A stretch of 64,000 nucleotides of DNA from contig OZ240245.1 in NCBI GenBank assembly GCA_965198175.1, forward strand, positions 3,675,030 to 3,739,029. Reading direction: 5' to 3'. The notes beneath the pieces are model-generated. The model made no database searches, was not told where the DNA came from, and was given only the letters and a program-made list of their open reading frames with translations. A program made the position numbers and the translations under genes. Origin of the DNA: Candidatus Poribacteria bacterium. GTDB lineage: Bacteria; Poribacteria; WGA-4E; PCPOR2b. Of this stretch, positions 1 to 7,934 are shown piece after piece. Positions within the stretch are counted from its first letter, which is position 1, and each line of letters starts with the position of its first letter.

Positions 1-168
1 GTCGGAACCTTAGACAAATACGGGAAGACGGCGGTGATGCTCAGTATTACTGAACACGGCGGGTATGTTAATGTGTACGGCAAAGGCGAGGGCAAGGCGG
101 TGATTGGAATCAACGAATACGGCAACGGCGTTGTCAACACGTGGGATAAAAACGGGTATCGGCAGTGA
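1..168 (+). CDS. partial CDS, 3' end only: C-terminus of an unknown protein with G/Y/N-rich strand-like repeats
   Basis: Frame 1 is open from the window edge to the TGA at 166-168 (..GGYVNVYGKGEGKAVIGINEYGNGVVNTWDKNGYRQ*). No start lies inside the window. It is not recognisably a Cas protein. Confidence 0.25.
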   Translation, partial: VGTLDKYGKTAVMLSITEHGGYVNVYGKGEGKAVIGINEYGNGVVNTWDKNGYRQ

Positions 169-310
169 TTGGCAATAATGTTCAGACATATAATGTCCCG
201 AATGCACGCTATGGTTCGGCTAAAGTAAAAGGAGGCGGTTGATGGATGCAATACCAGAGAGGCTAGACGGGGCGGGGCGATTGCTCGGTTCAAGTATGGC
301 AAATAAATGG

Positions 311-339
311 TTGACAGGTGAGAAGTAATCTGTTACTCT
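311..339 (+). promoter_or_regulatory. candidate sigma70 promoter facing the CRISPR-like array (TTGACA, 17-nt spacer, TACTCT)
   Basis: The -35 hexamer TTGACA lies at 311-316 and a -10-like TACTCT at 334-339. The region just upstream (172-310) is partly AT-rich and non-coding, like an array leader. The -10 is weak. Confidence 0.25.
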
Positions 340-612
340 AAGAATATCACAGTCGGTGTGGGGTGCTACGGCCGCCAATCCCGGTGGCCGCCCACACAAC
401 ACCTTTAGCACGGTGTATGATTGTGAGACTGTTGATTCCCAATACTTACTTACAATTAAGAGTTTTGCATCAATTCAACAGAACTGTTTAGTGTTCCAAA
501 TAAGTATCGCGTTAGATGTGACAGGCGGAAAGGTGTACTGGACGACTGTAGGCTTTTCCAGCGGCATCCAGCAAAGGTGGTACGGCGAAAGTGAATCTGA
601 TTTTCGCAAATC

Positions 613-650
613 GGTTTTCTGCGGAAAACAGGGGGGTACTTGCGAAACTT
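613..650 (+). repeat. 38-nt conserved element, copy 1 (..TTTCTGCGGAAAACAGGGGGGTACTTGCGAAACTT), followed directly by a repeat-tail-like TACGGCTGAAAG
   Basis: It matches 827-864 at 33 of 38 positions. The two copies sit in different reading frames of the overlapping track ORFs, so the conservation is not due to coding. Confidence 0.5.
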
Positions 651-767
651 TACGGCTGAAAGGACGGTATAACAGGCTGAAAACAGGGTGAAGTCTCTCA
701 ACCAGAATTTCACCAGACACCGCATAAAACTAGATGGGACACAGGTTGGAAGCAATGTTAGGGGTAG

Positions 768-804
768 GTTGCACTCTTTGACGCGATTACAAGCGGACTG
801 AAAG
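768..804 (+). repeat. CRISPR repeat R1 (perfect consensus)
   Basis: The 37-mer is identical to 1833-1869. Confidence 0.7.
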
Positions 805-826
805 AGGCATTAACACAGAGAAAATC

Positions 827-864
827 GTATTTCTGCGGAAAACAGGGGGGATTTTGCGAAACTT
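827..864 (+). repeat. 38-nt conserved element, copy 2, 22 nt downstream of R1; its G6 tract and TTG overlap the predicted start of ORF 854-1240
   Basis: It matches 613-650 at 33 of 38 positions. Confidence 0.5.
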
Positions 865-1240
865 AACAAATAACGTGGATGCGACCGCGATGAAAACGGG
901 GGAGCGCCTCAAGCGCGAGCGGCGGGTCTATGGTCGTTTGTACTTCCGCCGCTTGCACTTCCACAACGATTCATTTTGGCTTGTGTCGTTTCCCAGTCGC
1001 AAGGTTTTTGACAATTGCAAGCGTGCGGTCGAGGTGAGGCGGCTGCTAGGCGGGGCGTATCACTGCCGTTTGGAACGCATGGCTGCCAAAGACGCCAAGT
1101 GTGACGAATTAGTAATGGCCAGGCAATGCCATCACTACGAACCGGCGTCGATGATTGCCCTCGTCGAATACTTAGAACGTGATTGGAATGGCACGCCCCA
1201 ATGTCCTGAATATCATTGCATTCCGCCTCTGCCCGATTGA
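854..1240 (+). CDS. hypothetical Arg-rich and Cys/His-rich small protein (117-128 aa) embedded between CRISPR repeats
   Basis: The ORF runs from a TTG at 854, or an ATG at 890, to the TGA at 1238-1240. It contains several Cys/His clusters (CHHYEP, CPEYHC) that could bind metal. A degenerate repeat starts immediately after its stop codon. Confidence 0.4.
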   Translation: MRNLTNNVDATAMKTGERLKRERRVYGRLYFRRLHFHNDSFWLVSFPSRKVFDNCKRAVEVRRLLGGAYHCRLERMAAKDAKCDELVMARQCHHYEPASMIALVEYLERDWNGTPQCPEYHCIPPLPD

Positions 1241-1278
1241 TTGACACAATCGCAGACGCGGCAAAGCGGCTCTGCGGA
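1241..1278 (+). repeat. degenerate CRISPR repeat (TTGaCAC..GACGCGg-CAAaGCGGcTCTG)
   Basis: It keeps the TTG-CAC, GACGCG and CAAGCGG blocks of the repeat in the right order and at near-correct spacing. It starts 1 nt after the stop of ORF 854-1240. Confidence 0.45.
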
Positions 1279-1343
1279 ACTCGACCGACGGACGAACTAG
1301 TGAAGTCTTTTTTGGAGGCGATCAACTACGCAGAGGTTAGAAA

Positions 1344-1649
1344 ATGTCAATAACCTCACGAAGCTATACTATAGGGGAGGAGGTGATCAATCAATGGCAA
1401 GCAAAAAACGACCTGTTTACCCTGATAACCTGCCGAGCAAAAAAGAAGGAGCCAATGCGGGTAAAGGTAGAACAAACAACCCTAACCCAAAACACGGGAA
1501 GGCTCGTGACAAGTCTACATCTCGCAAAAAGTAGCATTATCGCCCTCAGGGAAGGCTTGGCTTACAATCTTTCCTTGAGGGCTAAGGATGCAAATCAGAA
1601 ATATCTGTTCCACTATGGTGGATGTTTGCGTAGGAGGAAATCATTATGA
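1344..1649 (+). CDS. hypothetical small ORF from the track (101 aa), with an alternative 46-aa Lys-rich ORF from the ATG at about 1394
   Basis: A strong SD (GGGGAGGAGGTGA) sits 7 nt before the ATG at about 1394. My hand translation of the printed sequence around 1437-1444 disagrees with the track by one A. With six A's the short basic ORF MASKKRPVYPDNLPSKKEGANAGKGRTNNPNPKHGKARDKSTSRKK is intact. Confidence 0.25.
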   Translation: MSITSRSYTIGEEVINQWQAKNDLFTLITCRAKKKEPMRVKVEQTTLTQNTGRLVTSLHLAKSSIIALREGLAYNLSLRAKDANQKYLFHYGGCLRRRKSL

Positions 1650-1759
1650 ACGACTACCGACGATGGGAAATACAAAATCCGATGCCGTGGTGGAAGATTC
1701 TCTTAATCTGGGTGGTGGCAGGGATTTTTTTTTGCCTACTCCACGGGCTGGGTTGTGAT

Positions 1760-1796
1760 TAAAAAAGACAGTAGAGAGTGACTAGCGGACTGAAAG
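1760..1796 (+). repeat. degenerate CRISPR repeat; the 3' 13 nt TAGCGGACTGAAAG are conserved
   Basis: It ends in GCGGACTGAAAG and lies exactly one 36-nt spacer (1797-1832) upstream of perfect repeat R2. Confidence 0.5.
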
Positions 1797-1832
1797 AACC
1801 ACAAGCCCATAGCCTTGATTCACTTGCTGAGA

Positions 1833-1869
1833 GTTGCACTCTTTGACGCGATTACAAGCGGACTGAAAG
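1833..1869 (+). repeat. CRISPR repeat R2 (perfect consensus)
   Basis: The 37-mer is identical to 768-804. Confidence 0.7.
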
Positions 1870-1904
1870 CGACGAAACGTGGACGTTTAAAGGAGAATTG
1901 AAGG

Positions 1905-2234
1905 ATGAAAAATAAGAATGAATTAGGCGGTTGCGGAACATTCGCTGTGATCGTATATGTAAGCGTAGTAGGTATCATTGCCGTTATTTGGATAATAGTA
2001 GAGGGTATACCTTATGTTGCAAAAGGCTTTTTGAAAGGCTTAAATGCTGTGGAAACTCGTGTTGGACCAACAGTTCGTAGAATAACCAACGAATCTACTT
2101 TACAAGATTTAAGAGACGATTACTACCATGGCATGAAAACCCCAAAGGGCTGGGACGCTGGCGAGTGGTACAAATACAAAACCGAAACCCCTGGAAAAGC
2201 ACTCCGATACCTTGACCGCTTGGCAATGGATTAG
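1905..2234 (+). CDS. hypothetical small membrane-anchored protein (109 aa; one N-terminal TM helix and a Lys/Tyr/Trp-rich C-terminal domain) embedded in the array
   Basis: The SD AAAGGAG sits 9 nt upstream of the ATG. A hydrophobic helix GTFAVIVYVSVVGIIAVIWIIV is present. Confidence 0.5.
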   Translation: MKNKNELGGCGTFAVIVYVSVVGIIAVIWIIVEGIPYVAKGFLKGLNAVETRVGPTVRRITNESTLQDLRDDYYHGMKTPKGWDAGEWYKYKTETPGKALRYLDRLAMD

Positions 2235-2267
2235 CGCATTGACAACTTTTTAACTTGAGGAGACTTT

Positions 2268-2489
2268 ATGCCACGAACCTTTTATAGTCGTTCCGATATA
2301 GTTGGCACCATCTCAATGCACAATATGCAAATTACAGATACGTTAGACCAAATCAAACGTGCCTTATCCGCTTATGGAAAAGACGCCGAACTTGTTGAAT
2401 GGGAAAATGAAGTTGAGGAGTTATTAAACACGCTCAAATCTAAGGCAAATACTTATGAGAAGGTTTTTAAGATTCGTCCTCTTCAATAA
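2268..2489 (+). CDS. hypothetical small acidic helical protein (73 aa), 33 nt downstream of 1905-2234; the pair may form a small operon
   Basis: The SD GAGGAG sits 8 nt upstream of the ATG. The 33-nt intergenic stretch looks like a vestigial repeat. Confidence 0.45.
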   Translation: MPRTFYSRSDIVGTISMHNMQITDTLDQIKRALSAYGKDAELVEWENEVEELLNTLKSKANTYEKVFKIRPLQ

Positions 2490-2575
2490 GGGAGATTAGC
2501 GGCATCTTCTGCTAATAGTCGTGCATTTACTTTACTGAGTATTCTGTCAGCAGCATCAGTAAGCATGTGGAAAGC

Positions 2576-2612
2576 CGCACTACCTTTGCCGCGATTACAA
2601 GCGGACTGAAAG
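2576..2612 (+). repeat. CRISPR repeat R3 (5' 12 nt diverged, 3' 25 nt perfect)
   Basis: The sequence is ..CTTTGcCGCGATTACAAGCGGACTGAAAG. A 36-nt spacer (2613-2648) follows. Confidence 0.65.
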
Positions 2613-2648
2613 ATTAGAACCCCTGCGCTAAACGCAAGCGATGGAATC

Positions 2649-2685
2649 GTTGCACTCTTTGACGCGATTACAAGCGGAATCACAA
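2649..2685 (+). repeat. CRISPR terminal repeat R4 (first 29 nt perfect, last 8 diverged)
   Basis: The sequence is GTTGCACTCTTTGACGCGATTACAAGCGG followed by aatcacaa. This is the pattern of a degenerate trailer repeat. Confidence 0.65.
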
Positions 2686-3060
2686 TCCAATAGAACGAAT
2701 GTACTCGTAGGCCCAGTAGGTGCGTAGCGTTTACGTCCAAGCTTGAGCCCAGATAATCTGTCATGTGTTTGTTGGCGAAATAGATAAAGACAACCCGAAA
2801 ATGCCAATCAAAGCATTGACATTAACTACGACTCCCAACGGCGGAAGCCATCACCATATACAACAATGAAGAAGAGTCCGTTGTTCGGATAGACATTGAC
2901 GATCGCGAGAACCCCTCTATTAACTGTTAACAAATCACAAGGATGCGTTTGCACCTGTCATTGAAAACGTGACGAAAACCCAGAAACCCAGTAAGTGAAT
3001 GAATTCTCGCGTGTGGTCCGCCATTCGCTTTAACGAAAAATAACAAAATGATAAAATATC

Positions 3061-3090
3061 TTGACAACAGATGATACCATCCCGTACAAT
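3061..3090 (+). promoter_or_regulatory. near-consensus sigma70 promoter (TTGACA, 18-nt spacer, TACAAT)
   Basis: The -35 is at 3061-3066 and the -10 at 3085-3090. It would start transcription at about 3097, toward the 3.1-3.6 kb non-coding or small-ORF region and the 3891 gene. Confidence 0.4.
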
Positions 3091-3615
3091 AGAAGCATTA
3101 ATCTTATGACGCTCTTTAAAAGCTGATCGGCAAGCCCAATAAGAGGCAGCCGGCATCGTCTTTGAACCCTAGACCGCAACAGATAGGCAGCACGAGTCAC
3201 TGACTACTCGCCACTGCTTTTCCTGTGAACAACCCCTTATTTGAATAACCACCGCGCAAGCGGGCAAGACAAACCCGAATGAGGCAGTCTTGAATCTAAA
3301 ACTGTCGCTTTTGGGTTTTTTTTGCTCGCTGCACCAACGACTGAAGCTTCAATGCCTCAAATTACACATGCTGAAAATGGATTACTATCCAAATCCAATC
3401 GCCTGAAACCGCTCTACAACTGGGTTGAAATTACTCGCATTTTATTCTTAATCCATTTCAAAAAATTTTCACATCGCCCGAACCCGCTCCACTACGAGAT
3501 CTCGGCCCGGAAAGAGGGAATTTCTGACCGCCAAAAATGGATTAGAATAGACTGAAGCCCAATCTTAAAGCAATGAGGTGAAAAAAATGCGCAAACAAAT
3601 CCAAAATGAAATCAG

Positions 3616-3722
3616 TTTTTGTAGGTTGGGTTGAGCGGTGATGATGAAACATGTGGACTATGACGAATCGGTTTGTTGGTCAATTGAATTCGAGAATTGT
3701 TGGATGAAGCGAAACGCAACGC
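3616..3722. repeat. left arm of an imperfect inverted repeat of about 105 bp (partner at 4990-5098)
   Basis: Positions 3616-3677 against the reverse complement of 5035-5098 match perfectly over 20- and 27-nt blocks. The match continues to about 3722 at roughly 80% identity. Confidence 0.6.
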
Positions 3723-3890
3723 TTTTTTATGCTTGAGATTGTGTTGAACGGGGTACGTGAGCAGAAAAACTACGGCCTAACTTCGCTATGGTGAACTGCA
3801 GAAACTAACGCAGTCGCTATTCGCTCAGTTGATCTCAACCCAACCTACAAGAACTACAAAAGCTAACGCTAAAGTAAGGGGGATTTTAAG

Positions 3891-4616
3891 ATGATTCGTG
3901 TATTTGCATCATTGGTGCTTGTCTTGGTATGCACAACCTGCGTTTTCTCTCACCCTGTTACCCTGAGATTCAATGTTACAAGTTTAACGGAAGAATCACA
4001 TATAGTGGTTCATGGCGTAGTTGAAAGCTTACAATATGTGTGGCGTGACAATCTTGCCCCTCGCCGGACGACGGACGTTACAATTAGAATCCAAGACATA
4101 CCCAAAGGCGAACCCAACCTTGGAGACGACCGAGTTATTTTCATGATTCCTGGCGGACGGGGATTAGAGGTGCCTCATACACCCAAATTTGACGTAGGAG
4201 AAAAGGTGTTGCTATTCCTGTTTTACACTCCAAGAGGGCCAGAAGCATGGCGGAAAATTCATGGTGGGCTTGTCGTAATCAATAAAAGGGAAGTGGCAAA
4301 TGATACGGAGGTATCTATTCCGTACACAACATATAAGGATAGGGTAGACGGTGGGAGCCCTGAAGTTATAGATTTCGATAAACCCATACATCTTCCTATC
4401 GATTTGGTGGTTAAGCTAGCAGAAGCTGCGTCTAAAGAGCCCCTACTGGTTTTAAGAGCCGAGGAACCAATAATCGAATTTGCTAAACACGCAGAGTGGA
4501 TTGAGTCGAGTAGGTTTACTAAGCCGGGCAAGGACTTATTGGACAGCGTGAAAGCAGATATTGATGAAATTCTAAAATTGAGCGCAAGGAAGGAGGAAAA
4601 CGATAATAAAAAGTAG
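3891..4616 (+). CDS. hypothetical secreted protein (241 aa) with an N-terminal signal peptide
   Basis: The SD GGGGG sits 8 nt upstream. A signal peptide MIRVFASLVLVLVCTTCVFS is present. The gene lies inside the inverted-repeat-bounded cassette. Confidence 0.55.
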   Translation: MIRVFASLVLVLVCTTCVFSHPVTLRFNVTSLTEESHIVVHGVVESLQYVWRDNLAPRRTTDVTIRIQDIPKGEPNLGDDRVIFMIPGGRGLEVPHTPKFDVGEKVLLFLFYTPRGPEAWRKIHGGLVVINKREVANDTEVSIPYTTYKDRVDGGSPEVIDFDKPIHLPIDLVVKLAEAASKEPLLVLRAEEPIIEFAKHAEWIESSRFTKPGKDLLDSVKADIDEILKLSARKEENDNKK

Positions 4617-4989
4617 AATAGCAATGATACTGGTGCTAATGGCTAATTTCTAGGCAACGATGGAATGAACCGGGTCCAGTGGTCGTAAGTTAGGTAGAGC
4701 AGTTTCGAAAAGGGTTGCTGCATAAGAAGGATTTGGTTTCGGGGGCTGAATTGGTCGTGATTCAATCGAAACCGAACTCTCTTTATGTGCTTGACAATGT
4801 GATTAGCGGGGGCCGTGAGCGGAAATAATGTGGAGAAAGCTATCGTACTCGCTATTCGCTCGCTTGATTCTATTCGGTCAATTGAGTTGTTCGCTCAGTT
4901 GATTGTATGGAATGCGTAACGGTAAATTTCCGGCGGGACGAATTTGGAACTTCGGAGAAAACTATCGCCTTCGCTGTCCGCTCAGTTGA

Positions 4990-5098
4990 TCGTTGGGTTT
5001 CGCTCCATCGAACAAATCTCGAACGCAATTAACCGACAAACCGATTCGTCATAATCCACATGTTCCACCACACCCGCTCAACCCAACCTACAAGAACT
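4990..5098. repeat. right arm of the inverted repeat (partner at 3616-3722)
   Basis: It is the reverse complement of the left arm. The internal direct repeat GCTATTCGCTCAGTTGAT occurs three or more times inside the cassette, at about 3795-3830, 4838-4905 and 4955-4990. Confidence 0.6.
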
Positions 5099-5287
5099 TA
5101 TCCGCATTGGACTGGGGCAGTAAGTGTAGAATCAATTAAAGGGATTCGAAAACGAACCTTCCAGCGTTTTGCAGTTGACACTCTAACCACATACTAATAT
5201 AATGTGTTGTACGAGTTGTACTGATTTTACGATTCAAATCGAGATTGTCTGAACCACTACGATTTTATATCGTCTACGGAATTCAAG

Positions 5288-6241
5288 ATGACAAACTTTA
5301 GAGCAATTTATCTGAATACTTTTATTGTTTTCACGTTCTCGATTGTGATGGCTGGTTGCAATACGACCAAACTCACCGTCAACCAAACAGTAAAGGTTTT
5401 TGCGAAAGCGTCCAAAACCTACGACAAGGAGGCGGACCTCATGCTAGCGGATGCTGGCATCATGTCAAACCTCAAGACATTTGAGGGATTGCAGGAGATT
5501 GTGCCGGAGAATGAGCGACTCCTGACGCTTACGGCGCGATCGTTTGCCTCATATGCGTTTGGCTTTGTTGAGGACAAAATGGAGGCAGCAGCGGCAGTTG
5601 GCGATTTCGAGACCGAATCTGAGATGCTCGCCCGGGCGATCGATTTTTATGAGCGTAGCAAACGGTCTGGTTTGAAGGCTTTGTCAAAGGCGAATTCGGC
5701 GTTCCCGGAAGCACTTGATGGCGAGCCGGAGAAGTTGGCACGCGCGTTAAAGCGATTCAAGAAAACACACGTGCCTGCGCTTTTCTGGACCGCATATGCG
5801 TGGGGTAGGGCGATTAATTTACAGCAGGACGATCCGATGCTGCTTGTCGATCTCGCCAAAGTAGAGATGATGATGCGCCGTGTTATCGAACTTGATGAAT
5901 CCTTTTACTTCGGCGGGGCGCATCTGTTTTATAGCGCCTACTACGGCAGCCGTTCACCACAACTGGGCGGCAACCCTGAGAAAGTGAAGCAACATTTACG
6001 AAAAGTGGACGAAATCAACAATGGCAAATTTCAGTTTAGTAAGTTGTTTCTCGCCCGCTATTACGCTTATCCTATTCAAAACCGGACGCTCTATGAAAAG
6101 ACGCTACAAGAGATTCTTGATGCACCGATCGACGTGTTCCCGGAACATCGGATATCAACCGCGATTGCTAAAGCGCGTGCTGAGCGTTGGCACGCCCAAA
6201 CAGACAATCTTTTCGGTGAAGCAGATGCCCACGATGAGTAG
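5288..6241 (+). CDS. TatT-like TPR lipoprotein, the T component of a TPAT-type TRAP transporter
   Basis: It has a lipoprotein signal sequence (..VMAGC). The body is helical and TPR-like. It sits immediately upstream of the DctP, DctQ and DctM homologues. Confidence 0.5.
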   Translation: MTNFRAIYLNTFIVFTFSIVMAGCNTTKLTVNQTVKVFAKASKTYDKEADLMLADAGIMSNLKTFEGLQEIVPENERLLTLTARSFASYAFGFVEDKMEAAAAVGDFETESEMLARAIDFYERSKRSGLKALSKANSAFPEALDGEPEKLARALKRFKKTHVPALFWTAYAWGRAINLQQDDPMLLVDLAKVEMMMRRVIELDESFYFGGAHLFYSAYYGSRSPQLGGNPEKVKQHLRKVDEINNGKFQFSKLFLARYYAYPIQNRTLYEKTLQEILDAPIDVFPEHRISTAIAKARAERWHAQTDNLFGEADAHDE

Positions 6242-6346
6242 CATCCAATGAAATGCAGTGGAGAGTTAAGAGCAAGTCTTTGCTCGCCACTAATCACTCT
6301 GCACCATAAAACACTCCACGCATGATTCGCAGCATCTGATAAAGAT

Positions 6347-7399
6347 TTGAGGTTTTTCAGACTGGAGAGACACATGACTCGCTTAACACAAATTTATCTT
6401 GTAATCTTCTCGCTCGCGATCCTTGTCATAATACCCACTGCTAGCGGCAACGAAAAAATTAAATTGGCAACACTCGCACCGAAAAACTCGTCGTGGATGA
6501 AGATTTTTTATGCGATGGGGAAAGAGATTCAGGAAAAAAGCGGCAGTAAGGTAAAGATTCAATTTTTTCCGGATGGGGTGCAGGGAGATGAAATCGATGT
6601 CATTCGTAAAATGCGCGCGGGCTTGCTTCATGCGGGTGCGATGACAGATGTCGGTTTGGGGGAGATTCATCAATCGGTGCTTATTTTTCAAACATTTCGC
6701 CTGTTTAATAACTATGCCGAACTCGACTACGTGCGCGATCAACTGCGGGATGGACTTGAAAAAGCGTTTGATGAGGCGGGCTATGTCCTACTAGGTTGGG
6801 GGGATATTGGTTACTACTATATTTTCAGCAATCATCCGATAAAGACCATCGAAGATCTCCGTGATCCAAGCGTCAAGGTGTGGGTACGGACGGGCGATCC
6901 TGTCTCAGAACACTTCTACAAAACCGTTGATTTCATAGGTGTTCCAGTGTCTGTGCCGCAGGTGCTGTTATCGTTGCAAACCGGGCAGATTAACGCTCTG
7001 ATTGTTTCGCCATTAGCGTGCGTCGCGCTGCAGTGGTATCCTAAGCTGAAGTATATGTCCGACATGCCAATCAGGATTGGAATTGGCGCAACGTTAATCA
7101 CTAAAGGAAGATACAATCAATTACCCGCCGAGGAGCAGAAGATTCTACGCGATACGGCACGACAATATCACCAGAAGCTCATCCAGCGCGTCCGGAATGA
7201 CAATGATAAGTCAGTCGAGGCGTTGACAAAAAAAGCGGGGATGCAGATAGTGACCATCAGCGATTCGGAGCGGGAGCGCTGGAACACGCGATGCGCCCAA
7301 ATGCGTGATGAACTCGCGGGAGAAATTTACCCACCTGCTCTACTTCAACAAGTGAACGCACTACTAGATGCTTATCGTTCAACACATCCACAAGATTGA
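6347..7399 (+). CDS. dctP: TRAP transporter substrate-binding protein, DctP family (TatP-like)
   Basis: It has a signal peptide and typical DctP-family motifs. The true start is probably M at about 6374. Confidence 0.75.
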   Translation: MRFFRLERHMTRLTQIYLVIFSLAILVIIPTASGNEKIKLATLAPKNSSWMKIFYAMGKEIQEKSGSKVKIQFFPDGVQGDEIDVIRKMRAGLLHAGAMTDVGLGEIHQSVLIFQTFRLFNNYAELDYVRDQLRDGLEKAFDEAGYVLLGWGDIGYYYIFSNHPIKTIEDLRDPSVKVWVRTGDPVSEHFYKTVDFIGVPVSVPQVLLSLQTGQINALIVSPLACVALQWYPKLKYMSDMPIRIGIGATLITKGRYNQLPAEEQKILRDTARQYHQKLIQRVRNDNDKSVEALTKKAGMQIVTISDSERERWNTRCAQMRDELAGEIYPPALLQQVNALLDAYRSTHPQD

Positions 7400-7934
7400 C
7401 ATCTGCCAATCAGGTGAGACTTTCAGATTGAACGCCGTCAAACGAATCAATATCCTTCTTGGTAACATCGAAACCGCGTTGCTATGTCTGATTATCCTGT
7501 CAATCGTTGGATTGGGGATACTGAAGATTCTTCTGCGCTATATTTTTCAAATAAGTCTCCTGTGGAACCAAGTTTTACTGCAGCACTTCATATTGTGGCT
7601 AACATTCTTGGGCGCATCGCTAGCCACCTGCGAAAACCGCCATATCAGTATTGATGTCCTCACCCGCTACCTACCGAGGCACCTCGTTCAATGTACCAAC
7701 ATCCTCATTCATATTATCAGCTTTGTTATCGTCTCCATCCTCGCTTATACCGGCTTTGAGTTCATACGCGACGAGCAGATGAGCGGTGCAACACTCGTCG
7801 GCACTATCCCAATTTGGTGGGCGAAGCTGATCATCCCGATTGGGTTTGGATTGATTGCACTTCACTTTGCTCTCCAAACCGTCATGGAGATATTTAGCAA
7901 AACCAAAGGGGAAGCTGCATCATGGGAGCGTTGA
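7368..7934 (+). CDS. dctQ: TRAP transporter small permease, DctQ family
   Basis: It has four TM helices in the DctQ pattern. The start is uncertain, probably downstream of 7399. Confidence 0.65.
   Translation: MLIVQHIHKIDICQSGETFRLNAVKRINILLGNIETALLCLIILSIVGLGILKILLRYIFQISLLWNQVLLQHFILWLTFLGASLATCENRHISIDVLTRYLPRHLVQCTNILIHIISFVIVSILAYTGFEFIRDEQMSGATLVGTIPIWWAKLIIPIGFGLIALHFALQTVMEIFSKTKGEAASWER

What the first reader, a model, noticed from the sequence alone, without database searches (positions are those of the whole stretch)
3616..5098. A 1.5-kb cassette bounded by 105-bp imperfect inverted repeats carries a secreted-protein gene instead of a transposase
Positions 3616-3722 and 4990-5098 form long terminal-inverted-repeat-like arms, with perfect 20- and 27-nt blocks and about 80% identity overall. 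Inside are at least three copies of a GCTATTCGCTCAGTTGAT-type direct repeat and a 70-bp direct repeat (3725-3800 against 4778-4850). A single ORF (3891-4616) encodes a 241-aa signal-peptide protein. This looks like a non-autonomous MITE-like mobile element with a passenger gene. Alternatively it could be a recombination or inversion module with binding-site arrays.
Basis: seen in the sequence. Interest (0 to 1): 0.6.

Follow-up and report, generated by a model that had tools for sequence, protein, structure and literature searches.

The report
Gene flanked by REP-type repeat copies
The two long "arms" are inverted copies of an unusually long member of a known class of small bacterial repeats (REP elements, spread by a RAYT transposase), sitting in repeat-filled spacers on either side of an ordinary secreted-protein gene; they are not the ends of a gene-carrying transposon.

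Summary
The inverted repeat is real. Arms 3611-3721 and 4991-5101 match at 95 of 111 positions. I do not think the 1.5 kb between them is one mobile cassette.

Each arm is a 100-nt unit: GTAGGTTGGGTTGAGCGG, about 70 variable nt, then AGCGAAACCCAAC. A public-genome scan for the head found at least 120 loci, 61 of them in Candidatus Poribacteria. In cyanobacteria and proteobacteria the same head and tail lie adjacent as a 31-nt GTAG-headed REP hairpin. In Poribacteria 87 of 97 units are 95-112 nt, usually paired as about 230-nt inverted doublets.

Y1 (RAYT) transposase genes are flanked by these units in Devosia and in three Poribacteria genomes. No RAYT lies in this window.

The locus holds a complete 242-nt element (3614-3855), the gene, then a second composite element (4678-5098). 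A near-identical relative keeps the right arm at the same site upstream of TatT but has different DNA to its left. There is no target-site duplication, no nearby recombinase and no second copy with other cargo.

The protein has an NTR/TIMP-like OB-fold N-domain.

Verdict: a BIME-like mosaic of a long-form REP variant in a variable island. Interest is moderate to low.

The parts
3611..3721 (+). Left arm. One long-form REP unit: extended head AGTTTTTGTAGGTTGGGTTGAGCGG (3614-3638), about 67 nt of variable region V, and tail AAGCGAAACGCAACG (3707-3721).
   Evidence: The unit is 100 nt from GTAG to ...CAAC, the same as the family mode of 99-106 nt.
3725..3775 (+). P block, copy 1 (GCTTGAGAT.GTG...CGTGAGC.GAAAA). 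It is conserved with window 4781-4826 and with L001 6703-6745. Function unknown.
   Evidence: 82% to L001; 77% to copy 2. No promoter consensus match.
3802..3834 (+). D block, copy 1 (AAACTAACGCAGTCGCTATTCGCTCAGTTGATC). It is a member of a 33-37-nt short dispersed repeat also found in L048, L010, L002, L046 and L123.
3834..3855 (-). Inner inverted head (A'). Together with 3614-3635 it closes a complete 242-nt element, 3614-3855.
   Evidence: (I2, 22 nt, 95%). The head-to-head spacing of 214 nt lies within the 212-230 nt seen in 37 doublets. It is 97% identical to L123 1702-1737.
3891..4616 (+). Gene for a 241-aa secreted-type protein with an NTR/TIMP-like OB-fold N-domain plus a beta/helical C-domain. 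It is resident cargo of the island, not a transposase.
   Evidence: 142 representative clusters; pLDDT 92.3; agrin NtA E 3e-4, TIMP, PCOLCE NTR. GC 44.2% and GC3 0.42, against 0.51-0.59 in neighbouring genes.
4678..4777 (+). Degenerate third unit (A*V*B*), starting CGTAAGTTAGGTAGAGCAG.
   Evidence: window 4678-4958 aligns to L001 6584-6883 (68% over 305 nt, E 1.6e-25). L001 6584-6883 begins with an intact unit.
4781..4869 (+). P block copy 2 and D block copy 2, direct repeats of 3725-3834.
4852..4908 (+). 18-nt tandem repeat, 3.2 copies (CTATTCGCTCAATTGATT), made of D-block cores.
4909..4958 (+). X block (GTAACGGT..ATTTCCGGCGGGACGAATTTGGAAcTTCGGAGA), shared with L001 6843-6884.
4959..4991 (+). 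D block, copy 3, abutting the right arm.
4991..5101 (-). Right arm. A second copy of the same V-type long-form REP unit, in inverted orientation (tails facing, heads outward).
   Evidence: It is 97.2% identical to L123 1572-1679 at the orthologous site upstream of TatT. The synteny break with L123 lies exactly at its inner edge, 4991.
5175..6241 (+). Context: a consensus promoter (TTGACA-17-TATAAT, 5175-5203) and the TatT gene (5288-6241), the first gene of a conserved TRAP-transporter block.

Best explanation
Positions 3611-5101 are not a single transposon. They are an ordinary accessory gene whose upstream and downstream spacers are mosaics of short dispersed repeats, comparable to the BIMEs of E. 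coli.

The two 111-nt arms are two copies of one repeat unit. The unit has the head GTAGGTTGGGTTGAGCGG, about 70 nt of variable sequence, and the tail AGCGAAACCCAAC. It is a long-form variant of a GTAG-headed REP whose compact 31-nt hairpin form occurs in cyanobacteria, Chloroflexota, Desulfobacterota and Proteobacteria. In Candidatus Poribacteria, the lineage of this window, the long form dominates and normally occurs as tail-to-tail inverted doublets of about 230 nt (REPIN-like).

Inferred mechanism: a RAYT (an HUH/Y1 tyrosine transposase) encoded elsewhere in the genome recognises the GTAG-headed unit on single-stranded DNA and copies single units or doublets into intergenic DNA. Resident copies then act as substrates for homologous or illegitimate recombination. 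This would explain why the region left of the right arm differs between near-identical strains, and why a 58-nt segment between two direct heads is present in L123 but absent here.

Shown here: family membership of the arms; the doublet architecture; the association of RAYT genes with these units in other genomes; and the strain-level breakpoint at the arm edge.

Inferred only: RAYT-mediated copying in this genome, and any effect on expression of the 241-aa gene.
For: Of these, 61 loci are from Poribacteria, often several per chromosome.

2. Unit length is bimodal: 68 units of 30-39 nt and 131 of 95-112 nt with a peak at 102-103 nt. In Poribacteria 87 of 97 units are long. Both window arms are 100 nt.

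3. There are 37 inverted doublets with head spacing of about 212-230 nt. The window pair 3621+/3835- is spaced 214 nt.

4. RAYT association. L074:5139-5666 matches Pfam Y1_Tnp (E 6.9e-7) and is flanked by inverted compact REPs at 5073+ and 5705-. Poribacteria RAYT genes in L131, L129/L130 and L021 are flanked by long-form doublets or arrays within 12-70 nt. These RAYTs are 64-70% identical to proteins that NCBI names 'REP-associated tyrosine transposase' in cyanobacteria.

5. The literature defines GTAG-tagged REPs, their HH/TT/HT dimers and REPtrons (PMC3733652). It also describes a slowly evolving RAYT Group 4 common in Cyanobacteria and Caldilineae (PMC5581495).

6. The locus is composite. 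It has an inner head at 3834-3855, and 4678-4958 is homologous to the gene-less element L001 6584-6883.

7. L123 keeps the right arm (97.2%) upstream of TatT but has a UDG gene and other repeats to its left. L124 (TatT 87%) has no arm there.

8. No target-site duplication is present.
Against: - The source genome itself could not be scanned, so neither its RAYT gene nor further copies of this V-type were seen. Only one locus in the 64-kb window carries units.
- The long form is not a compact hairpin. Single units fold no better than shuffles as ssDNA (z -0.05 to -1.6), so recognition by a RAYT is extrapolated from the compact relatives and from gene adjacency.
- The two arms share a V region not seen elsewhere except in L123. 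They lie heads-outward around a gene, which is the same topology as the REPs around the RAYT gene in L074. A REPtron-like mobile unit is therefore not formally excluded.
- The P, D and X blocks remain unexplained.
Confidence: 0.75

Rival explanations
1. REP-bounded mobile cassette. The two outward-facing units act as the ends of a REPtron-like element in which a cargo gene replaces the RAYT, and a RAYT supplied in trans excises and reinserts the whole 1.5 kb.
For: - The heads-outward topology equals that of the REPs flanking the RAYT gene in L074.
- The arms share a private V region at 86% identity.
- The gene has lower GC3 (0.42) than its neighbours.
- The region upstream of TatT differs between strains.
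Against: - L123 retains the right arm alone at the same site, so the two arms do not come and go together.
- The arms differ from each other by 14%, whereas the right arm differs from its L123 orthologue by only 3%. The duplication is therefore much older than the strain difference.
- No target-site duplication.
- Extra heads and units lie inside the segment.
- No second copy was found in two metagenome scans or in 131 loci.
- Gene homologues elsewhere lack the arms.
Confidence: 0.08
2. Site-specific inversion switch (inverton or shufflon). A recombinase flips either the 198 nt between the 22-nt heads at 3614-3635 and 3834-3855, or the 1.27 kb between the long arms. This would switch expression of the secreted protein.
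For: - 22-nt (95%) and 111-nt (86%) inverted repeats lie directly upstream of and around a secreted-protein gene.
- An array of 18-nt repeats could be binding sites.
- L001 carries a Phage_integrase gene about 3.5 kb from its own elements.
Against: - The same inverted-head architecture occurs in dozens of intergenic doublets across Poribacteria irrespective of neighbouring genes, so it is a property of the repeat family.
- No sigma-70-like promoter lies in 3614-3890 on either strand.
- No tyrosine or serine recombinase homologue was found in the 64 kb.
- The arms are not homogenised (14% divergence).
Confidence: 0.06
3. RNA-level element. If the locus is transcribed through, the two arms pair into a long duplex that brackets the ORF and controls mRNA stability (an RNase III target) or translation. 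The repeats could also act as 3' stabilisers or terminators, as proposed for REPs.
For: - The predicted inter-arm RNA duplex is -152.6 kcal/mol.
- Element 3611-3860 folds with z = -4.7 through head pairing.
- REPs are reported mainly downstream of genes and as RNA elements (PMC3733652).
- The tail at 3706-3725 scores as terminator-like, a hairpin followed by T6.
Against: - The stability follows trivially from the inverted repeat.
- An alignment of 22 doublets shows only invariant stems and essentially no covariation (term -0.3).
- There is no Rfam match.
- No promoter was found upstream of the left arm that would give a transcript spanning both arms.
Confidence: 0.1
4. Integron-like gene cassette whose arms are attC sites (GTTGGGT fits the GTTRRRY core).
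For: - GTTGGGT and ACCCAAC match the R' and R'' consensus by eye.
- The variable middle of roughly constant length recalls attC structure.
Against: - The order is GTT...AAC within a unit, the reverse of attC (RYYYAAC...GTTRRRY).
- The two sites are inverted relative to each other rather than in one orientation after each cassette.
- Units are dispersed singly or as doublets across genomes and flank RAYT genes.
- No integrase was found in the window.
Confidence: 0.01

Closest known systems
GTAG-tagged REP / REPIN elements with their RAYT (REP-associated tyrosine transposase). Probably the slowly evolving RAYT 'Group 4' of Bertels et al. 2017; that group assignment is inferred from taxon range only.
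   Same: - GTAG head followed by an 8-bp stem pair (GTTGGGTT/AACCCAAC).
- Dispersed, mostly extragenic copies.
- Frequent tail-to-tail inverted doublets.
- The same units immediately flank Y1_Tnp genes, which is the REPtron arrangement.
- The compact 31-nt form in other phyla is a textbook REP.
   Different: - In Poribacteria the stem halves are separated by about 70-85 nt of non-palindromic, variable sequence of nearly fixed length (units 99-106 nt). Published REPs are 20-40 bp with loops up to about 27 bp (PMC3733652).
- Doublets are about 230 nt.
- In the window's sub-lineage the second half of the doublet is replaced by the unrelated P and D blocks.
BIMEs (bacterial interspersed mosaic elements) of enterobacteria
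   Same: Intergenic mosaics combine REP units in both orientations with other short conserved motifs. Here those motifs are P, D and X. The mosaics lie between unidirectional genes and vary between strains.
   Different: The sequences are different and the units much longer. No evidence was obtained here for IHF, gyrase or Pol I binding.
MITEs and composite transposons carrying passenger genes
   Same: Long terminal inverted repeats bracket a non-transposase gene.
   Different: - No target-site duplication.
- No second copy of the whole unit.
- One arm is fixed in a relative that lacks the rest.
- The arms are themselves complete small repeat units.
Invertons such as fimS and Bacteroides promoter switches, and shufflons
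   Same: Short inverted repeats flank a segment of about 200 bp directly upstream of a secreted-protein gene.
   Different: No promoter consensus inside the segment and no recombinase nearby. The inverted repeats are generic ends of a dispersed repeat family.
NTR/TIMP-like OB-fold domains (agrin NtA, N-TIMP, PCOLCE NTR). This applies to the 241-aa protein only.
   Same: The predicted N-domain (about residues 36-130) superposes on agrin NtA (3i70, 1jb3), N-TIMP and the PCOLCE NTR domain. For agrin NtA, E is 3e-4 to 5e-4 and the target-normalised TM-score is about 0.51.
   Different: - No sequence-level match to Pfam or PDB.
- No conserved N-terminal cysteine in the family alignment, so TIMP-type protease inhibition is not implied.
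- There is an extra C-terminal beta-hairpin and helical domain.

Membership tests
GTAG-REP / REPIN-RAYT system | A conserved GTAG (GTRG) tetranucleotide at one end, next to a palindromic stem | tested here: met
   Both arms start ...GTAGGTTGGGTT and end AACCCAAC/AACGCAAC. The same holds in 234 units from 122 loci.
GTAG-REP / REPIN-RAYT system | A short (20-40 bp) unit that folds into a stable hairpin | tested here: not met
   The window units are 100 nt. ssDNA folding gives z -0.05 and -0.57. Only compact relatives fold: the L029 REPIN gives -37.7 kcal/mol, z -14.4. This is why I call it a variant rather than a plain member.
GTAG-REP / REPIN-RAYT system | Many dispersed copies per genome, mostly extragenic | tested here: inconclusive
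   Met for related Poribacteria chromosomes: at least 7 loci in OZ242349.1 and at least 8 in OZ220722.1, in a scan cut at 120 rows. The source genome outside the window could not be scanned, and within the 64 kb only this locus carries units.
GTAG-REP / REPIN-RAYT system | Units commonly arranged as inverted doublets (REPINs) | tested here: met
   37 doublets with head spacing of about 212-230 nt. Window 3614-3855 has doublet size and inverted heads but a non-canonical right half.
GTAG-REP / REPIN-RAYT system | A RAYT (Y1/HUH transposase) gene flanked by the same repeats (REPtron) | tested here: met
   L074 (Pfam Y1_Tnp E 6.9e-7, REPs at 5073+ and 5705-), L131, L129/L130 and L021. This is not shown for the source genome: there is no RAYT in the window.
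GTAG-REP / REPIN-RAYT system | RAYT binds and cleaves the unit; copies move | not testable with these tools
   Needs biochemistry or population sequencing.
   111-nt arms, 86%.
   The flanks are ...ATGAAATC| and |TATCCGCA, with no shared bases.
   L123 has the right arm alone at the orthologous site. No other copy was found in 131 loci or in two metagenome scans. The collections searched are incomplete.
Inverton / shufflon | A promoter or coding end inside the invertible segment | tested here: not met
   No sigma-70-like site of at least 9/12 lies between 3614 and 3890. This is a consensus scan only, and Poribacteria promoters are uncharacterised.
Inverton / shufflon | A dedicated tyrosine or serine recombinase nearby | tested here: not met
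   tblastn with a tyrosine integrase (L001), XerC and Hin against the window gave no hit below E 0.5. Sensitivity is limited.
Inverton / shufflon | Both orientations present in a population | not testable with these tools
   No reads are available.
Integron attC cassette | R'' (RYYYAAC) at the 5' end and R' (GTTRRRY) at the 3' end of each site, with all sites in one orientation | tested here: not met
   Units read GTTGGGTT...AACCCAAC, the reverse order, and the two arms are inverted relative to each other.
BIME-like intergenic mosaic | REP units combined with other recurrent short motifs in variable arrangements between genes | tested here: met
   The A-V-B units combine with P, D and X blocks in different orders in the window, L001, L048, L010 and L123.

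The most novel reading that the evidence does not exclude
The long units may be a distinct kind of RAYT substrate: a REP whose hairpin loop carries a fixed-length, non-palindromic insert of about 70 nt. RAYT action or recombination at these units could shuffle small secreted-protein genes in an accessory island of a sponge-associated lineage. On this reading, REP-bounded segments such as 3611-5101 are occasionally moved as cassettes.
Probability: 0.1. Interest if true: 0.6.

Novelty: new variant of a known kind. Interest (0 to 1): 0.33.

Why it matters
For this finding, the result removes an attractive but unsupported reading. This is not a new cargo-carrying MITE or an inversion switch. It is a gene sitting between REP-type repeats.

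The wider by-product is modestly interesting.
- One REP head-and-tail pair is conserved base for base across at least six phyla, together with a RAYT that is 64-70% identical between Poribacteria and cyanobacteria.
- In Poribacteria this REP has turned into 100-nt units and 230-nt doublets with a variable core of nearly fixed length. I found no description of these in Rfam or in the searched literature.
- Such repeats are useful markers for assembling and comparing symbiont genomes.
- They appear to mark strain-level rearrangement points.
- They would be a natural test case for how far a RAYT tolerates changes in its substrate.

Tried and rejected
- **Rfam.** A gathering scan of the whole window, a permissive scan of 3000-5400 and a gathering scan of 10 related loci gave no relevant family.
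- **tRNA/tmRNA.** None found.
- **Literature search by sequence words.** It returned only unrelated primer matches.
- **Exact look-up of the 241-aa protein's contig.** Not on record.
- **Metagenome scans.** The arm-specific 27-mer and the D-A' junction 24-mer both gave 0 hits. The collection does not even return L123.
- **Integron attC idea.** Rejected on motif order and orientation.
- **V region as a structured RNA or DNA hairpin.** Rejected: z about 0 for single units and no covariation in 22 doublets.
- **Promoter inside the 242-nt element.** None found by consensus scan.
- **RAYT remnant or recombinase in the window.** None.
- **Bulk Pfam scan of 43 window ORFs.** It lists only the most frequent families, so it was uninformative for single-copy recombinases.
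- **Sequence-level annotation of the protein.** Pfam and PDB gave nothing. Only the fold search helped.
Full report
**1. Observation**

The repeat finder reports inverted arms at 3611-3721 and 4991-5101: 111 nt, 86% complementary, 1269 nt apart. An ungapped count gives 95/111 matches, with longest perfect runs of 20 and 18 nt.

The 22-mer CTCAACCCAACCTACAAGAACT occurs three times in the 64 kb, all at this locus: 3614-3635 inverted, 3834-3855 and 5077-5098. None was found in 100 shuffles.

The TTCGCTCAGTTGAT-type repeat has four copies. Three lie in an 18-nt tandem at 4852-4908.

The '70-bp direct repeat' is two blocks: 77% over 44 nt and 82% over 38 nt. The 241-aa ORF at 3891-4616 is the only long ORF inside.

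One is the inner inverted head at 3834-3855. The other is a degenerate further unit at 4678-4777.

**2. What the arms are**

The two known homologues of the gene lie on ENA contigs L001 and L002. Neither gene is bracketed by arms. However, L001 carries the same sequence blocks about 3 kb away from its copy of the gene.

About 17 are expected by chance for an 18-mer in 596 Gb (my own estimate). Of the hits, 61 loci are Candidatus Poribacteria, often several per chromosome. The rest are Desulfobacterota, Cyanobacteria, Chloroflexota, Proteobacteria, a Brocadiaceae MAG and a Pedobacter.

In every case the head is followed by the tail (A)GCGAAACCCAAC. The distance between them is bimodal. There are 68 units of 30-39 nt and 131 units of 95-112 nt, peaking at 102-103 nt.

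- **Compact form.** It reads GTAG, then GTTGGGTT, an 11-nt loop, then AACCCAAC. This is a classical GTAG-headed REP. Inverted pairs of it form perfect REPIN hairpins, for example L029 2112-2179 at -37.7 kcal/mol, z -14.4.
- **Long form.** It dominates in Poribacteria, at 87 of 97 units. Both window arms are 100-nt long-form units.

The variable core V is not a hairpin: ssDNA folding gives z between -0.05 and -1.6. An alignment of 22 doublets supports only the invariant head/head and tail/tail stems, with a covariation term of -0.3. No Rfam family matches.

**3. Usual architecture and the partner transposase**

In Poribacteria the usual element is a tail-to-tail inverted doublet: head-V1-tail, about 25 nt, then tail'-V2'-head'. 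Head spacing is about 212-230 nt. I found 37 such doublets.

A 175-aa ORF in Devosia (L074:5139-5666) carries the HUH and Tyr motifs and matches Pfam Y1_Tnp (E 6.9e-7). It lies between inverted compact REPs at 5073+ and 5705-.

tblastn with that ORF finds homologues next to units in several loci:
- L021 (Poribacteria PCPOR1), with a doublet ending about 70 nt upstream;
- L115 (Trichodesmium);
- L053 (Pseudomonas);
- L085, a remnant.

The L021 protein has more than 6900 homologues at E below 1e-40. These include Poribacteria proteins at 71-94% identity. They also include cyanobacterial proteins at 64-70% identity that NCBI names 'REP-associated tyrosine transposase'.

Two further Poribacteria RAYT loci confirm the association.
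- In L131, doublets end 20 nt before the gene and units resume 12 nt after it.
- In L129 and L130, a doublet follows the gene. After it comes a tandem array of nine (L129) or seven (L130) units with a period of about 153 nt.

This is the REPtron arrangement described for GTAG REPs (PMC3733652). The taxon range and the slow divergence fit RAYT 'Group 4' (PMC5581495). That group assignment is my inference.

**4. Anatomy of the locus**

From left to right:
- 3614-3855 is a complete 242-nt element: head, V, tail, P block, D block, inverted head. Its head spacing of 214 nt is within the standard doublet range, although P and D replace the usual second half.
- The gene follows, at 3891-4616.
- 4678-5098 is a second composite: a degenerate unit, then P, D, the D tandem, X, D, and the right arm.

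Window 4678-4958 aligns to L001 6584-6883 (68% over 305 nt, E 1.6e-25). There the same composite is contiguous and has no gene inside.

D is itself a 33-37-nt dispersed repeat, seen in L048, L010, L002, L046 and L123. The spacers are therefore mosaics of several repeat families, comparable to BIMEs.

**5. Is the 1.5 kb a unit?**

I compared orthologous TatT loci.

- **L123** (TatT 97% aa) is 97.9% identical to window 5077-7473. It carries the right arm at the same position (L123 1572-1679 against 4991-5098, 97.2%).
  - To the right of that arm it has an extra 58 nt: two D cores plus a second head.
  - To the left of position 4991 nothing matches. There is a spacer, a lone tail, an inverted D and a UDG gene, but no 241-aa gene and no left arm.
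- **L124/L125** (TatT 87%) share synteny for 11 kb downstream. Homology starts only at window 5152. There is no arm there, although a related doublet (72% to the left arm) lies 3 kb upstream.

The arms therefore do not travel together. The strain-level breakpoint coincides with the inner edge of one unit. The arms also differ from each other far more (14%) than the right arm differs from its orthologue (3%).

There is no target-site duplication. The window contains no RAYT, integrase or invertase homologue. No promoter consensus lies inside 3614-3890. Two metagenome scans for arm-specific and junction-specific words found nothing. That collection does not return L123 either, so this negative result is weak.

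**6. The gene**

The protein has no Pfam or PDB sequence match. It belongs to a family of 142 representative clusters of about 230-260 aa.

A 44-sequence alignment gives a confident model: pLDDT 92.3, pTM 0.85. The N-domain matches NTR/TIMP-like OB folds: agrin NtA 3i70 and 1jb3 (E 3e-4 to 5e-4), PCOLCE NTR, and TIMP-1/-2. No N-terminal cysteine is conserved, so TIMP-like inhibition is not implied.

Its GC (44.2%) and GC3 (0.42) are below those of the TRAP genes (GC3 0.51-0.59). Region 1-3600 is also low in GC, at 45.9%. Together with the strain differences, this marks 1-5100 as an accessory island.

**7. Mechanism**

- **Shown.** The arms are members of a RAYT-associated GTAG-REP family. The family's long form and doublets are typical of Poribacteria. 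The locus is a mosaic. One arm is fixed in a relative that has a different left flank.
- **Inferred.** A RAYT encoded elsewhere copies units or doublets through single-stranded intermediates, as established for E. coli RAYT and IS200/IS605 enzymes (cited in PMC3733652). Resident copies then promote local recombination. This would produce the 58-nt indel between direct heads and the breakpoint at 4991.
- **Possible side effect.** If both arms are co-transcribed, they could form a -152.6 kcal/mol duplex around the ORF. There is no evidence for such a transcript.

**8. Verdict**

The element is best filed as a new long-form variant of GTAG-REP/REPIN repeats in a BIME-like mosaic.

Confidence in this reading is about 0.75. 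Interest is moderate to low (0.33). The residual novel reading, REP-bounded gene shuffling by a RAYT, has a probability of about 0.1.

Noticed in passing
window 768-804, 1833-1869, 2576-2612, 2649-2685 (partial copy 1784-1796): A 37-nt CRISPR-like direct repeat, GTTGCACTCTTTGACGCGATTACAAGCGGACTGAAAG. There are two identical copies and two degenerate ones. Spacings are 1065, 743 and 73 nt, which gives one 36-nt spacer, and another 36-nt gap follows the partial copy. Small ORFs sit between the distant copies. The repeat is absent from the 128 loci held when it was searched, and there is no Rfam CRISPR-DR hit. It looks like a fragmented or invaded mini-array.
   Followed up: partly
window 3061-3325: A near-consensus promoter (TTGACA-18-TACAAT, 11/12) is followed by about 230 nt without an ORF, ending in a hairpin plus a T8 run. 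This is a candidate small RNA with no Rfam match. L124 9511-9625 has an analogous promoter-terminator unit upstream of its TatT gene.
   Followed up: no
window 1-5100: This is a low-GC, gene-poor stretch: 45.9% GC in 1-3600, and ORF GC3 of 0.42 against 0.51-0.59 in the TRAP genes. The content upstream of TatT differs between the window, L123 and L124. It is probably an accessory or variable island, and its left end lies outside the window.
   Followed up: partly
L129 3778-4993 and L130 3781-4716: A tandem array of nine (L129) or seven (L130) long-form REP units, all in one orientation with a period of about 153 nt, lies directly downstream of a Poribacteria RAYT gene. The copy number differs between two samples.
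   Followed up: partly
window 3802-3834, 4837-4869, 4959-4991; L048 489-544, 656-711, 1166-1221; L010 3511-3540, 7790-7824; L123 1374-1408: A separate 33-37-nt dispersed repeat (D: GAgAAGACTATCGCCTTCGCTATTCGCTCAGTTGATC) occurs with or without the REP units. It is not palindromic and its function is unknown. Its 17-18-nt core forms a 3.2-copy tandem at window 4852-4908.
   Followed up: partly
window 3891-4616: The 241-aa protein's N-domain is predicted with high confidence to adopt an NTR/TIMP-like OB fold (agrin NtA, TIMP, PCOLCE). This is a eukaryote-style extracellular module in a Poribacteria genome. The family has 142 representative clusters and no annotation.
   Followed up: yes
window 608-653 and 822-867: A 46-nt direct repeat (87%), AAATCGnnTTTCTGCGGAAAACAGGGGGGnnnTTGCGAAACTT, lies on either side of the first CRISPR-like repeat.
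   Followed up: no
window 1-167; L001 7032-7340: The window opens in the C-terminus of a Gly-rich repeat protein ending ...GINEYGNGVVNTWDKNGYRQ*. This resembles the 102-aa ORF that sits between REP-type elements in L001.
   Followed up: no
Desulfobacterales MAG CAXXIG01 (L007, L031, L054, L055, L066, L080, L082, L097, L103, L107, L116): A near-identical, multi-copy element of about 128 nt is built from the same head and tail blocks in a different order: head, inverted tail, about 55 nt, tail, inverted head. This suggests the building blocks have been re-used independently in another phylum.
   Followed up: no
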